Source: Escherichia coli
GTDB lineage: Bacteria; Pseudomonadota; Gammaproteobacteria; Enterobacterales; Enterobacteriaceae
Strand: one strand, 5' to 3'
DNA: 64,000 nucleotides
NCBI RefSeq assembly: GCF_044324875.1
Contig: NZ_CP172185.1
The position numbers were made by a program. This document shows, piece by piece, positions 9,001 through 11,828 of the stretch. Numbering within the stretch: the first letter of the stretch is position 1; every line of letters begins with the position of its first letter.

Positions 9001-11828
9001 GCTGGAAGTGGATATCAATAATCAGGCGGAGATCGACAAAGTGATTGCCCACACCTTACGTCCGGTGGAATCCATTCATTACCTGCCGGTCACGCTGACA
9101 CCAGATACGTTGCGTGCAGCGTTCGAAAAAGTGGAATCGTTTAAAGCCTGACGTACATATTTAGCAGCAGCGCGCGCCGCCTTTTCCACCGTAGCGCGCG
9201 TCCTGCCGCTCACGGAAAAACTCCTCGTAGGTCATCGGCGTTTGATCGGGATGGTTAACCCGCATATGTTCGACATAGTTGTCGTAATCAGGCATACCAA
9301 TCATCAGCTTCGCCGCCTGACCTAAATATTTTCCGGCTTTTGCCAGTGAATCAAACATTAATACCTCCGGTAATCAGGTTGCCAGGAGAGTGCCGGATGC
9401 GGCGTGAACGCCTTATCCGGCCTACAAATGCTATCAACGCGCTCGGTCAGTCCCCTCGCCCCATCGGGGAGAGGGTTAGGGTGAGAGGGAACCCTCGGCA
9501 CTATGCCAACATTCGCCAACATCCCCCCTCACTCTGACTTTAGTGTGCGCCTTTTGCCTGCGCCACGATCTCCTCGACATTTTCCGGCATCGGCTCATAC
9601 GGCGTTTCTTTCGCCGTTGGCTTCGGCTCTTTCAATGCCGCCAGTGCCGTCTTAATCGAGAACAGCGCCAGAACCACCACGACCACCATAAAGAAGATGG
9701 TTAACCCAGCATCCAGACGGTTGTTGAATACCAGTTGCGCCAGTTGTGACTCAGTATACTGCGACGGAATATTGCCGCTGTCGATCATTGCCTGGAACTT
9801 GTTAGCAATCGCCAGGAAGCCGACTTTCGCATCCGGGCTAAACGCTTTCTGCCAGCCAGCGGTCAGTGTACAAATCAGCAGCCAGGCCGTTGGTACCAGC
9901 GCCACCCAGGCGTAACGTTGACGTTTCATTTTGAACAGCACCACGGCACAAAGCATCAGCGCCATTCCTGCCAGCATCTGGTTGGCAATACCAAACAGCG
10001 GCCACAGAGTGTTAATACCGCCCAGCGGATCGACCACACCCTGATGGAGGAAGTAGCCCCACGCCAGTACGCACAGCGCCGTTGCCAGCAGGTTAGCAGG
10101 CAGTGAATCGGTCCGTTTCAGGCCCGGAGACACCACGCCCAGCAGATCCTGCAACATAAAACGCGCAGCTCGCGTACCTGCATCCACCGCCGTCAGAATA
10201 AACAGTGCTTCAAACAGAATGGCGAAGTGATACCAGAACGCCACATCCATCATGCCGCCCAGCGCGCCGTGCAGAATGTAGGCCATCCCCACCGCCAGCG
10301 TCGGCGCACCGCCCGCACGGGAAATGATCGACTGTTCACCCACTTCGCTGGCAATCTGGTTGAGCGTATCTGGTGTAATGCTAAAGCCCCAGCTACTCAC
10401 CACCTGCGCGGCAGAAGCGACCACATCCGCCGTCCCTGCCGGAGCCAGCACCGCCATCGGGCTGTTCATAGCGAAGTACACACCTGGATCGATGATACAG
10501 GCGGAAACCAGCGCCATAATCGCCACGAAGGATTCCATTAACATCCCGCCGTAGCCGATAAAACACGCCTGCCCTTCGTTCGCCAGCATCTTCGGCGTGG
10601 TACCGGAAGAGATCAGCGCATGGAAGCCAGACACCGCGCCACAAGCGATGGTGATAAACAGGAACGGGAACAGGTTACCGGTCCATACCGGGCCAGTGCC
10701 ATCAACAAACTTAGTCAGCGCAGGCATGGTCAGCGTCGGGCGCATAATCAAAATGCCTACTGCCAGGCCGACGATAGTCCCGATTTTCAGGAAGGTAGAG
10801 AGGTAGTCACGCGGGGCCAGCAGCAACCACACCGGCAGCACCGCCGCCACGAAGCCGTAACCCACCAGCATCCAGGTCAGCTGCACACCCGTAAAATCAA
10901 AGTACGGTGCCCAGGTCGGGCTTTCTGCCACCCAGCCGCCAGAGATAATGGCGAAAATCAGGAATACCAGGCCAATCACCGATACTTCGCCAATACGCCC
11001 CGGACGCAGATAACGCAGGTAGATCCCCATAAACAGCGCCAGCGGAATGGTGAACGCAACGGTATACGTTCCCCACGGACTATGGGTCAGGGCTTTCACC
11101 ACGATCATCGCCAGCACGGCAAGGATAATGACCATGATCATAAAGCAGGCCACCAGCGCAATCACCCCGGCGGTTGGCCCCATCTCTTCTTTGACCAACT
11201 CACCCAGCGAGCGACCGTCACGACGCGTAGAAACAAACAGCACCATGAAATCCTGCACTGCACCGGCGAGAACCACCCCGGCGAGTAGCCAGATCATCCC
11301 TGGCAGGTAGCCCATTTGCGCTGCCAGCACCGGCCCAACCAACGGACCTGCTCCGGCAATGGCCGCAAAATGGTGACCGAACAGCACTTTCTTGTCCGTC
11401 GGCACATAGTCCAGGCCGTCGTTATGGCGCACCGCTGGCGTCATACGCGTCGGGTCAACTGCCAGCACATTTTTGGCGATATACAGGCCATAAAAACGGT
11501 AAGCGATCAGATAGATACAGACCGACGCCACCACAATCCACAGTGCGTTGATCTGTTCCCCACGATTTAAAGCAATGTATCCCAGAGCAAATGCTCCCAT
11601 TACAGAGAGCACTGTCCAGACGAGGTATTTCCCTGATTTGTTCATAGTTGTTATCCGTGTGCGTGTCCATAGAGATGTTACATTTTGTTTCTATAACATC
11701 TTTGTACAATTTAACAACACAGCAACCATGTAAATCGGAGTTGAAACCAATATTTAACTTAACAATGTTAACTCGATCACTCCGTTAACCGAGTTTTCCT
11801 GCAATCTCATTTAATTCTGTCGGGCTCA

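What the first reader, a model, noticed from the sequence alone, without database searches (positions are those of the whole stretch)
9440..9539. Composite palindromic repeat next to a REP element in the ybdD–cstA spacer
Downstream of the canonical REP (9392-9425), the spacer carries a second structured element: CCCCTCGCCCC-ATC-GGGGAGAGGG followed by TTAGGGTGAGAGGG and, further on, CCCCCTCACTCT. These are imperfect inverted G/C-rich blocks that could form a large stem-loop at the 3' end of the cstA transcript, just upstream of ybdD on the same strand. Such structures can act as mRNA stabilisers or partial terminators modulating read-through into ybdD.
Basis: seen in the sequence. Interest (0 to 1): 0.2.

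Follow-up and report, generated by a model that had tools for sequence, protein, structure and literature searches.

The report
BoxC repeat between cstA and ybdD
The G/C-rich palindromic blocks next to the REP element are a slightly degenerate copy of BoxC, a known short repeat scattered through the E. coli chromosome (also called PIT, TMECO or HPGQ), joined to an older hairpin that follows the cstA gene; this is ordinary and already catalogued.

Summary
Window 9452-9489 (+) reads CCCCTCGCCCC-ATC-GGGGAGAGGG-TTA-GGGTGAGAGGG, and the distal block CCCCCCTCACTCT (9523-9535) is complementary to the third block.

It is not a new element. It is a copy of BoxC (= PIT = TMECO = HPGQ), with about 15 places per E. 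coli genome. Kaplan et al. 2016 list this exact copy as HPGQ 19 (K-12 position 632058, between cstA and ybdD). It misses the strict TMECO pattern by one G-to-A change at 9486, but other strains carry the canonical form at this locus.

The "composite" look arises because BoxC is fused to a hairpin that follows the cstA stop codon in all 12 Escherichia alleles examined, with or without BoxC.

There is no U-tract, no terminator-like site, and published tests of these elements found no terminator activity. A published Term-seq RNA 3' end (K-12 632098, LB OD 2.0) falls 10 nt after the BoxC hairpin.

My best reading is a stack of RNA hairpins (old hairpin, BoxC, REP) that blocks 3' exonucleases on cstA mRNA. 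This role is probably redundant and weakly selected.

The spacer is highly polymorphic, and related genera carry BoxC-type elements in the same spacer.

Novelty: already known. Interest: low.

The parts
9540..11645 (-). cstA coding sequence (pyruvate/proton symporter), upstream gene of the spacer; stop codon at 9540-9542
   Evidence: 701-aa ORF. Annotated cstA in the identical E. coli 042 region.
9161..9358 (-). ybdD coding sequence (65 aa, YbdD/YjiX family), downstream gene
   Evidence: ORF and annotation. 100% identical relatives were found in other Escherichia species.
9392..9425 (.). REP element (single palindromic unit)
   Evidence: Inverted repeat 9392-9405 / 9408-9421. Hairpin of -21.1 kcal/mol, z = -4.7. 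Sub-threshold Rfam naRNA4 match, a REP-derived family. The element is cleanly absent in strains A33, DETEC-S586 and FUJ80154.
9424..9513 (+). Full extent of BoxC-family homology (outer flank, three blocks, inner flank)
   Evidence: BLAST shows 80% identity over about 90 nt to the left half of the MG1655 fepB-entC BoxC pair. The flanks are shared with paralogues at gntP-fimH, ypfG-tktB, zntA-tusA and ytfQ-ytfR.
9452..9489 (+). BoxC/TMECO three-block core, type A with one internal mismatch: block 1 CCCCTCGCCCC (9452-9462), loop ATC, block 2 GGGGAGAGGG (9466-9475), loop TTA, block 3 GGGTGAGAGGG (9479-9489). A at 9486 replaces the canonical G.
   Evidence: One mismatch to the published TMECO pattern. 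Canonical G is present in strains A33, DETEC-S586 and O157:H7 at this locus. Listed as HPGQ 19 by Kaplan et al. 2016.
9453..9475 (-). BoxC Watson-Crick hairpin as it appears in the cstA-sense RNA (CCCUCUCCCC-GAU-GGGGCGAGGG)
   Evidence: Present in the minimum-free-energy and centroid structures.
9481..9532 (-). Post-cstA long hairpin: 12-bp stem pairing 9521-9532 with 9481-9492. The 3' arm is also BoxC block 3.
   Evidence: Folds. A hairpin of this kind is present in all 12 Escherichia alleles, with or without BoxC. It is more stable on the sense strand in 11 of the 12 (FUJ80154 is the exception, -58.1 sense vs -58.9 antisense), for example Nissle -42.5 vs -26.9 kcal/mol.
9523..9535 (+). Distal block CCCCCCTCACTCT: the 5' arm (in mRNA sense) of the older hairpin, not part of the repeat family
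   Evidence: CCCCCTCACTCT is invariant in 8 E. coli alleles; the base just before it varies. The block is present in E. whittamii and Escherichia sp. MOD1-EC7003, with substitutions in E. albertii and E. coli SCPM. It is absent from BoxC paralogues.
9442..9442 (-). Position equivalent to the published K-12 Term-seq RNA 3' end (MG1655 632098, + strand)
   Evidence: Adams et al. 2021, Supplementary file 1, sheet LB 2.0, average read count 1686, class 'orphan'. It lies 10 nt after the BoxC hairpin and 4 nt after the predicted closing helix 9534-9538 / 9446-9450.
9505..9524 (+). 10-nt tandem duplication GCCAACATTC/GCCAACATCC in the loop of the long hairpin; polymorphic
   Evidence: Direct repeat D2. 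Single copy in strains A33 and KKa019.

Best explanation
Window 9424-9513 is a copy of BoxC, a short dispersed intergenic repeat of E. coli and related enterobacteria. BoxC is also published as PIT element, TMECO and HPGQ/HPG1. This copy is type A and has one extra G-to-A change in its third block.

The repeat sits fused to a hairpin that follows the cstA stop codon throughout the genus Escherichia. BoxC block 3 doubles as that hairpin's 3' arm. A REP element lies on the other side.

Identity and anatomy are shown. The mode of action that follows is inferred.

- The element acts, if at all, in the cstA-ybdD transcript. The older hairpin, the BoxC hairpin and REP form three consecutive stable stem-loops.
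- These stem-loops stall 3'-to-5' exonucleases. They define a protected 3' end for cstA mRNA once the transcript has been cut or terminated further downstream.
- BoxC is not an intrinsic terminator.
- Its contribution is probably redundant with the older hairpin and only weakly selected, because about a quarter of E. coli genomes lack it at this site.
For: **Identity**
- The 61-nt core matches in 5420 of 5426 E. coli genomes, median 15 places per genome, almost all chromosomal.
- Paralogues align over the three blocks plus about 20 nt of flank on each side.
- The published TMECO pattern and the 23 K-12 copies are given in Holder 2015.
- The copy near fabI (envM) in K-12 was recovered. Per Holder 2015, Bergler et al. 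1992 (the envM gene paper) is one of two 1990s references that first described BoxC.
- This very copy is listed as HPGQ 19: cstA, 51 nt, midpoint 632058 on the minus strand, 108 nt, ybdD.

**Anatomy**
- E. albertii, E. whittamii, Escherichia sp. MOD1-EC7003 and some E. coli have only the hairpin plus REP.
- The eight E. coli alleles compared show REP present or absent and BoxC present or absent in every combination, plus a 6-bp slippage deletion.

**RNA-level action**
- The sense RNA folds at -48.9 kcal/mol, z = -3.4, into a Y-shaped domain of two hairpins.
- A curated Term-seq 3' end in K-12 lies 10 nt after the BoxC hairpin. It is the only curated 3' end in 631900-632199.
- Across 70 spacers between cstA-family and ybdD-family genes from about 26 genera, 63 have z < -2. 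The sense strand is more stable than the antisense strand after correcting for composition: 48 vs 22, p = 1.6e-4; at genus level 22 vs 4.
- The hairpin variants are G.U wobbles that pair only in the sense RNA. The window's own 9486 G-to-A change also turns a G-C pair into G.U in that stem.
- At adk-hemH and tauD-hemB, alleles without BoxC carry a different hairpin right after the stop codon.
Against: - Only one weak 3' end (average 1686 reads) was seen, in one of three conditions. None of the ten other single-copy K-12 BoxC loci I queried has a curated 3' end at the element.
- Per Holder's summary, Hoyne & Maher 2002 saw no effect of these elements on promoter activity, terminator activity or RNA polymerase. 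mRNA stability was not mentioned as tested.
- B2 strains and other Escherichia species lack BoxC blocks 1-2 at this locus with no known consequence.
- Among the K-12 copies that lie between tandem genes, orientation relative to transcription is mixed. This is compatible with a hairpin role but also with no role.
- The sense-strand bias was shown for the spacer as a whole, not for BoxC itself. Spacers with perfect inverted pairs show almost no bias.
- The species sampled are not phylogenetically independent.
Confidence: 0.5

Rival explanations
1. Neutral relic. The BoxC copy is a decaying selfish or passively copied repeat with no selected role at this locus. The hairpins and the mapped 3' end are incidental consequences of its sequence.
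For: - The element is absent or broken at this locus in about a quarter of E. coli genomes: 4070 of 5426 have at least 80% of the 114-nt query, and B2-type alleles cover only 75% of the 580-nt query.
- At least eight allelic forms were seen, including a 6-bp deletion and a point-degenerate third block.
- Copy number per genome ranges from 1 to 26.
- No function was found in two published functional studies.
Against: - BoxC-type C/G-block hairpins occupy this same spacer in 31 of 77 species sampled: 11 strict, 3 near-strict and 17 hairpin-only.
- 41 of the 84 such hairpins found in 1.39 Mb lie within 160 nt of the ybdD start.
- Every Escherichia allele examined keeps a hairpin after the stop codon, more stable on the sense strand in 11 of 12.
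- These points argue that a structure at this site matters, even if BoxC itself is replaceable.
Confidence: 0.3
2. DNA-level non-B structure. The G-rich strand (window + strand) folds into an intrastrand purine-motif triplex or a G-quadruplex when single-stranded. This stalls replication or repair and makes the locus unstable (Holder 2015), or acts as a topological switch (Kaplan 2016).
For: [quoted passage not shown]
- TMECO loci are more variable between strains than control intergenic regions.
- This spacer is highly polymorphic, including slippage-type deletions inside the G blocks.
- 9466-9489 is the only canonical G4 motif in the window.
Against: - No triplex was seen in duplex DNA, and there was no DMS protection in vivo.
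- The window copy breaks the strict three-block pattern at 9486.
- Much of the variability at this locus involves REP and the hairpin loop, not only BoxC.
- In cstA transcription the G-rich strand is the template strand, not the displaced strand (direct from the sequence).
- Association with variability is also what a mobile or recombining repeat would produce without any non-B structure.
Confidence: 0.15
3. Partial transcription terminator or attenuator that sets read-through from cstA into ybdD.
For: - In Citrobacter, Kosakonia and Buttiauxella, and weakly in Salmonella arizonae (GCTTG tail), a hairpin in this spacer is followed by a short T run. 11 of 77 spacers have at least 5 T in 8 nt, and 30 of 77 have at least 4.
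- The paralogous btsT/yjiX-type loci carry a canonical terminator between the two genes.
- An RNA 3' end maps in the K-12 spacer.
Against: - There is no U-tract after any of the three E. coli hairpins, and no terminator-like site in 9100-9800.
- The mapped 3' end is 10 nt beyond the hairpin, in non-U sequence.
- PIT elements showed no terminator activity.
- The adk 3' end maps about 60 nt beyond a BoxC copy, at adk's own terminator.
- YbdD is needed together with CstA for pyruvate uptake, so strong termination between the two genes would be counterproductive.
Confidence: 0.08

Closest known systems
BoxC repeat. Per Holder 2015, first found in the 1990s (Bergler et al. 1992; Leung et al.); BoxC figures (56 bp, 32 copies) attributed to a Bachellier et al. 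reference in Petrillo et al. 2008. Also called PIT element (Hoyne et al. 2000; Hoyne & Maher 2002), TMECO (Holder et al. 2015, PMC4666352) and HPGQ/HPG1 (Kaplan et al. 2016, PMC5100583).
   Same: - Same three-block sequence, with the type A TTA second loop and the G mismatch in block 1.
- Same flanking homology.
- Intergenic and multi-copy.
- This copy is HPGQ 19 in Kaplan's Table 1.
   Different: - One G-to-A change in block 3 (9486) puts it outside Holder's strict pattern, so it is missing from their list of 23.
- Block 3 is shared with a locus-specific hairpin arm.
REP/BIME elements (the neighbour at 9392-9425)
   Same: - Short, G/C-rich, palindromic, dispersed and located at 3' ends or between cistrons.
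- Known to stabilise upstream mRNA against 3' exonucleases (summarised in PMC2267715). This is the same action I infer for BoxC.
- Also polymorphic at this locus.
   Different: - Unrelated sequence.
- REP is a two-arm palindrome, not three blocks.
- REP has a known mobilising enzyme family (RAYT, from my own knowledge). BoxC has none known.
MITE-like enterobacterial repeats (ERIC/IRU, Correia/NEMIS, YPAL)
   Same: - The 183-bp inverted BoxC pair at K-12 fepB-entC behaves like a discrete insert. Four Escherichia lineages have a clean empty site, TAA flanks both ends, and the arms form a long imperfect inverted repeat.
- Elements of this kind are transcribed into hairpin RNAs.
   Different: - At adk-hemH and tauD-hemB, alleles without BoxC are whole-spacer replacements, not empty sites.
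- No transposase link is known, and the element is almost absent from plasmids.
Rho-independent (intrinsic) terminators
   Same: A G/C-rich stem-loop just after a stop codon. In other genera the BoxC-type hairpin in this spacer is followed by a short T run.
   Different: The E. coli copy has no U-tract, and no terminator activity is reported for the family.

Membership tests
BoxC / PIT / TMECO / HPGQ repeat | Sequence homology to other family copies over the blocks and flanks (about 50-90 nt) | tested here: met
   80% identity over about 90 nt to the K-12 fepB-entC copy. Aligns with four paralogues, with blocks and flanks conserved. Listed as HPGQ 19.
BoxC / PIT / TMECO / HPGQ repeat | Strict TMECO search pattern CCCTCNCCC-N3-6-GGGNGAGGG-N3-GGGNGAGGG (Holder 2015) | tested here: not met
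   One mismatch: the third block reads GGGTGAGAG, which is why the copy is absent from Holder's Table 1. This is a search pattern, not a homology criterion. Alleles at the same locus in strains A33 and DETEC-S586 meet it. I therefore call this a degenerate member.
BoxC / PIT / TMECO / HPGQ repeat | Dispersed, multi-copy, chromosomal | tested here: met
   Median of 15 places per genome; 72375 places on chromosomes against 29 on plasmids.
BoxC / PIT / TMECO / HPGQ repeat | Strictly intergenic location | tested here: met
   Lies between the cstA stop (9540) and the ybdD start (9358).
BoxC / PIT / TMECO / HPGQ repeat | Canonical G4 motif with conserved loops (Kaplan's HPG1 criterion) | tested here: met
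   GGGG-AGA-GGG-TTA-GGG-TGAGA-GGG at 9466-9489, the only such motif in the window.
BoxC / PIT / TMECO / HPGQ repeat | Formation of an intrastrand triplex or G-quadruplex by the G-rich strand | not testable with these tools
   Only Watson-Crick folding can be computed here. Published CD and NMR data are for canonical oligonucleotides, not this variant.
REP element (for 9392-9425) | Imperfect palindrome of about 35 nt, multi-copy, matching the REP consensus | tested here: met
   Arms 86% complementary. naRNA4 (REP-derived) match with E = 3.3e-5, below the gathering score. The 580-nt query containing it finds a median of 37 places per genome.
Intrinsic terminator | G/C-rich stem-loop followed directly by a U-tract | tested here: not met
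   No terminator-like site on either strand in 9100-9800. The sequence after the BoxC hairpin in the mRNA is ACUGACCGAG.
MITE (non-autonomous transposable element) | Terminal inverted repeats, target-site duplication, and clean filled/empty sites | tested here: inconclusive
   One locus, fepB-entC, shows a clean 183-bp presence/absence with TAA at both ends. Two other loci show spacer replacement instead. At cstA-ybdD the boundaries are blurred by fusion to the hairpin.

The most novel reading that the evidence does not exclude
The conserved feature is an RNA hairpin module at the cstA-ybdD junction, and BoxC-type elements are interchangeable hairpin cassettes for mRNA 3' ends. They would be kept or repeatedly installed at this junction in at least eight enterobacterial genera, because they shape the 3' end or processing of the cstA message and so the CstA:YbdD expression ratio. 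If true, this would give BoxC, whose function has been unknown since the 1990s, an RNA-level role rather than the DNA triplex or G4 roles proposed so far.
Probability: 0.2. Interest if true: 0.5.

Novelty: already known. Interest (0 to 1): 0.18.

Why it matters
As a finding it matters little. The element belongs to a repeat family first described in the 1990s, and this exact copy is already in a published table.

The side results are modestly useful.
- They show why catalogues based on a strict triplex pattern miss degenerate copies such as this one.
- They link a published RNA 3' end to a BoxC hairpin.
- They show that the cstA-ybdD junction carries a sense-biased hairpin across Enterobacteriaceae, often of BoxC type.

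Together these make an RNA-level role for BoxC testable at a locus whose two genes form one pyruvate-uptake system.

Tried and rejected
1. **Rfam.** No family covers the BoxC part at E up to 10. Only the REP-derived naRNA4 matches next door.
2. **Intrinsic terminator or promoter.** Neither was found in 9100-9800.
3. **A general link between BoxC and RNA 3' ends.** I queried Adams et al. Term-seq tables around ten other single-copy K-12 BoxC loci. None has a curated 3' end at the element. The adk end is at its own terminator. Supplements of two other Term-seq papers were not available.
4. **BoxC as a MITE with a target-site duplication.**
   - Supported only at fepB-entC.
   - Contradicted at adk-hemH and tauD-hemB, where alleles lacking BoxC carry a different spacer with another hairpin.
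   - A cross-genus search for empty sites was too noisy to use.
5. **Counting the A and G variants of block 3 with 30-mer queries.** 1420 and 1800 records scored at least 99%. These are upper bounds, because partial matches to paralogues can also score 100%, so I use them only to say that both variants are common.
6. **Which cstA-ybdD allele is ancestral.** Not resolved (see the notebook entry under 'unexplained').
7. **Formal covariation statistics on the older hairpin.** Not attempted. Twelve closely related alleles give too few changes: one double change in E. albertii and several G.U wobbles.
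Full report
**Observation**

- CCCCTCGCCCC lies at 9452-9462, ATC at 9463-9465 and GGGGAGAGGG at 9466-9475.
- TTA lies at 9476-9478 and GGGTGAGAGGG at 9479-9489.
- Further on, CCCCCCTCACTCT lies at 9523-9535.
- A REP hairpin lies next door, with arms 9392-9405 and 9408-9421. It gives a sub-threshold match to the REP-derived Rfam family naRNA4.
- The flanking ORFs are cstA (9540-11645, minus strand) and ybdD (9161-9358, minus strand). The spacer is 100% identical to that of E. coli 042.

The motif is not a chance feature.
- It occurs once in the window, against zero in shuffles.
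- It is the only canonical G4 motif in the 64 kb.
- The sense RNA of 9440-9540 folds at -48.9 kcal/mol, z = -3.4.

**What it is**

The 61-nt core is a dispersed repeat.
- It matches in 5420 of 5426 complete E. coli genomes, at a median of 15 places per genome (range 1-26), almost all chromosomal.
- Paralogues at gntP-fimH, ypfG-tktB, zntA-tusA and ytfQ-ytfR share the three blocks and about 20 nt of flank on each side.

The literature identifies the family under four names.
- BoxC: 56 bp and 32 copies in E. coli, figures that Petrillo et al. 2008 (PMC2267715) attribute to a Bachellier et al. reference.
- PIT, for 'potential intrastrand triplex' element (Hoyne et al. 2000).
- TMECO (Holder et al. 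2015, PMC4666352; pattern and 23 K-12 copies).
- HPGQ, group HPG1, described as a 'G-quadruplex-hairpin-duplex switch' (Kaplan et al. 2016, PMC5100583).

Per Holder 2015, Bergler et al. 1992 (the envM gene paper) is one of two 1990s references that first described BoxC. I recovered the K-12 copy near fabI, which is envM.

Kaplan's Table 1 lists this very copy as HPGQ 19. It places it 51 nt after cstA, with midpoint 632058 on the minus strand, and 108 nt before ybdD.

The copy is missing from Holder's table because its third block reads GGGTGAGAG. The A at window 9486 is one mismatch to their strict pattern. Strains A33, DETEC-S586 and O157:H7 carry the canonical G at this locus. The window copy is therefore a degenerate member of a known family.

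**Why it looks composite**

I aligned eight E. coli alleles of the spacer and extracted the spacer from four further Escherichia genomes.

| Allele state | Genomes |
|---|---|
| REP plus BoxC | window (042-like), MG1655 |
| BoxC without REP | A33, DETEC-S586, FUJ80154 |
| REP without BoxC | KKa019 |
| Neither | Nissle-type (SYNB1934), phylogroup B2 by my own knowledge |
| 6-bp slippage deletion inside the G blocks | STEC2018-607 |
| Hairpin plus REP only | E. albertii, E. whittamii, Escherichia sp. MOD1-EC7003, E. coli SCPM-O-B-8794 |

- A 10-nt tandem duplication at 9505-9524 is also polymorphic.
- The last group has only the hairpin AGAGTGAGGGGGAA-loop-TTCCCCTCACTCT, starting 4-7 nt after the cstA stop, followed by REP.
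- The distal block is thus the 5' arm (in mRNA sense) of a hairpin found across the genus. In alleles with BoxC, block 3 of BoxC serves as that hairpin's 3' arm.
- The hairpin loop and the BoxC flanks are about 80% identical to the centre and left half of the inverted BoxC pair at K-12 fepB-entC.
- The B2 allele keeps the BoxC outer flank but not blocks 1-2.
- Which state is ancestral is unresolved. Either an old BoxC pair decayed differently in each lineage, or BoxC was copied in by conversion seeded on a BoxC-like hairpin.

**The same spacer in other genera**

I retrieved 80 loci around YbdD-family genes from different species. A few (for example the Atlantibacter loci and C. freundii M-21) look like the btsT-yjiX paralogue. 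Of these, 77 had a readable spacer, classified below.

| Spacer content | Loci | Examples |
|---|---|---|
| Strict TMECO, single or inverted pair | 11 | Enterobacter, Lelliottia, Leclercia, Phytobacter, Pluralibacter, Cedecea, Pseudocitrobacter |
| Near-strict (up to 2 mismatches) | 3 | E. cloacae M-7, Pseudocitrobacter faecalis, isolate RIT714 |
| BoxC-type hairpin only (CCCTCNCC-loop-GGNGAGGG) | 17 | Citrobacter, Salmonella arizonae, Kosakonia |
| REP-like or other hairpins, or a very short spacer | 46 | Kluyvera, Klebsiella, Buttiauxella |

- In the hairpin-only group the hairpin is often followed by a short T run.
- Of the 84 BoxC-type hairpin sites in 1.39 Mb, 41 lie within 160 nt upstream of ybdD.
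- 63 of 70 spacers fold with z < -2.
- After correcting for composition, the sense strand is more stable than the antisense strand: 48 vs 22, p = 1.6e-4; at genus level 22 vs 4, p = 3.6e-4.
- Within Escherichia the bias is large. For example, Nissle is -42.5 vs -26.9 kcal/mol, because the arm variants are G.U wobbles.
- The window's 9486 A likewise turns a G-C pair into G.U in the sense RNA, while breaking the triplex pattern.
- These tests bear on the spacer as a whole, and the species are not independent. They nevertheless point to an RNA-level structure after cstA.

**Transcript evidence**

- Adams et al. 2021 (PMC7815308), Supplementary file 1, lists one curated Term-seq 3' end in this spacer. 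It is at MG1655 632098, + strand, sheet LB 2.0, average read count 1686, class 'orphan'.
- Their sequence column spans -50 to +10 around the end. The RNA therefore ends ...GGGGCGAGGGGACUGACCGAG.
- That is 10 nt after the BoxC hairpin and upstream of REP, equivalent to window 9442.
- In the fold of the RNA ending there, the older hairpin and the BoxC hairpin are enclosed by a 5-bp helix (9534-9538 with 9446-9450), leaving a 4-nt tail.
- No U-tract is present, and no terminator-like or promoter-like site is found in 9100-9800.
- A 3' end a few nucleotides beyond a stable hairpin without U's is what exonucleolytic trimming to a barrier produces. This rests on my own knowledge of RNase II and PNPase behaviour, and it is inference here.
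- The signal is weak and seen in only one condition.
- Ten other single-copy K-12 BoxC loci have no curated 3' end at the element. The adk 3' end maps about 60 nt beyond its BoxC copy, at adk's own terminator.

**Published functional work**

As summarised by Holder et al.:
- PIT elements block DNA polymerase in vitro, but no effect was found in vivo.
- They show no promoter or terminator activity and no effect on RNA polymerase.
- Isolated G-strand oligonucleotides form a very stable triplex. Duplex DNA does not, and in vivo DMS footprinting shows no protection.
- TMECO loci are more variable between strains than control intergenic regions.
- TMECO is reported absent from Salmonella and is most abundant in Enterobacter asburiae.

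CstA and YbdD are both needed for constitutive pyruvate uptake (Hwang et al. 2018). Strong termination between the two genes is therefore unlikely to be favoured.

**Mobility**

- The window lacks the 183-bp inverted BoxC pair that MG1655 carries between fepB and entC. The empty site is at about 16813-16815.
- The MG1655 insert has TAA at both ends.
- E. albertii, Escherichia sp. MOD1-EC7003 and E. coli SCPM are also empty. E. whittamii has the same insert with its centre deleted. This looks MITE-like.
- At adk-hemH and tauD-hemB, however, alleles lacking BoxC are not empty sites. They carry a different spacer with another hairpin right after the stop codon.
- Mobility therefore remains inconclusive. 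The replacements do fit the idea that some hairpin is wanted at these 3' ends.

**Verdict**

The stem-loops, the other copies and a nearby RNA 3' end all exist, but the element is the known BoxC repeat, and the terminator idea is not supported.
- Identity is close to certain.
- The most likely way it works is inferred, at about 50% confidence. It acts as one of three stacked RNA hairpins (older hairpin, BoxC, REP) that protect the cstA 3' region from exonucleases. This role is probably redundant and weakly selected.
- The rivals are a neutral relic (0.3), a DNA triplex or G4 causing instability (0.15) and a partial terminator (0.08).
- Novelty: already known. Interest: low.
- The cross-genus persistence of BoxC-type hairpins at this junction, and the link to a mapped 3' end, are the only leads worth a small follow-up.

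Noticed in passing
window 16813-16815 (fepB-entC spacer); L009:342-524: The window lacks the 183-bp inverted BoxC pair present in MG1655 between fepB and entC. The site is cleanly empty, and the MG1655 insert has TAA at both ends. E. albertii, Escherichia sp. MOD1-EC7003 and E. coli SCPM are also empty. E. whittamii has the insert with its centre deleted.
   Followed up: yes
window 9505-9524: A 10-nt tandem duplication GCCAACATTC/GCCAACATCC sits in the loop of the post-cstA hairpin. Strains A33 and KKa019 have a single copy.
   Followed up: partly
L015-L094, the 160 nt upstream of ybdD: The cstA-ybdD spacer holds strict TMECO elements in 11 loci from 7 named genera (plus one MAG) other than Escherichia, and BoxC-type hairpins in 31 of 77 species sampled. 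41 of the 84 such hairpins in 1.39 Mb lie in this one spacer. The rest cluster at a few other syntenic spacers, about -5 kb, -2.5 kb and +6.5 to +8.5 kb from ybdD.
   Followed up: partly
L095 (MG1655 adk-hemH) vs L097/L099; L096 (tauD-hemB) vs L098: Strains without BoxC at these loci carry a different post-stop spacer with its own hairpin, rather than an empty site.
   Followed up: partly
MG1655 624680 (- strand), L009 about 481: Adams et al. list a strong Term-seq 3' end (about 103,000 reads, LB 0.4 sheet) between entC and fepB on the fepB-sense strand. It ends just 5' of the inverted BoxC copy TMECO 8. The window strain has no BoxC pair there.
   Followed up: no
MG1655 631994 (- strand), equivalent to about window 9546 (+): Adams et al., Supplementary file 2, lists a Rho-termination region antisense to the 3' end of cstA. 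This implies antisense transcription entering cstA from the spacer side.
   Followed up: no
L010:299-410 (Nissle-derived strain SYNB1934): The B2-type spacer has a different small hairpin, CCCTCCTGAATTAAGAGGG, where other strains have REP. It keeps the BoxC outer flank but not blocks 1-2.
   Followed up: partly
L032, L036, L040, L043 (btsT/yjiX-type loci): These loci, probably the btsT-yjiX paralogue, carry a canonical intrinsic terminator (ACTCCCCGGC...GCCGGGGAGTTTTT) between the transporter gene and the small gene.
   Followed up: no
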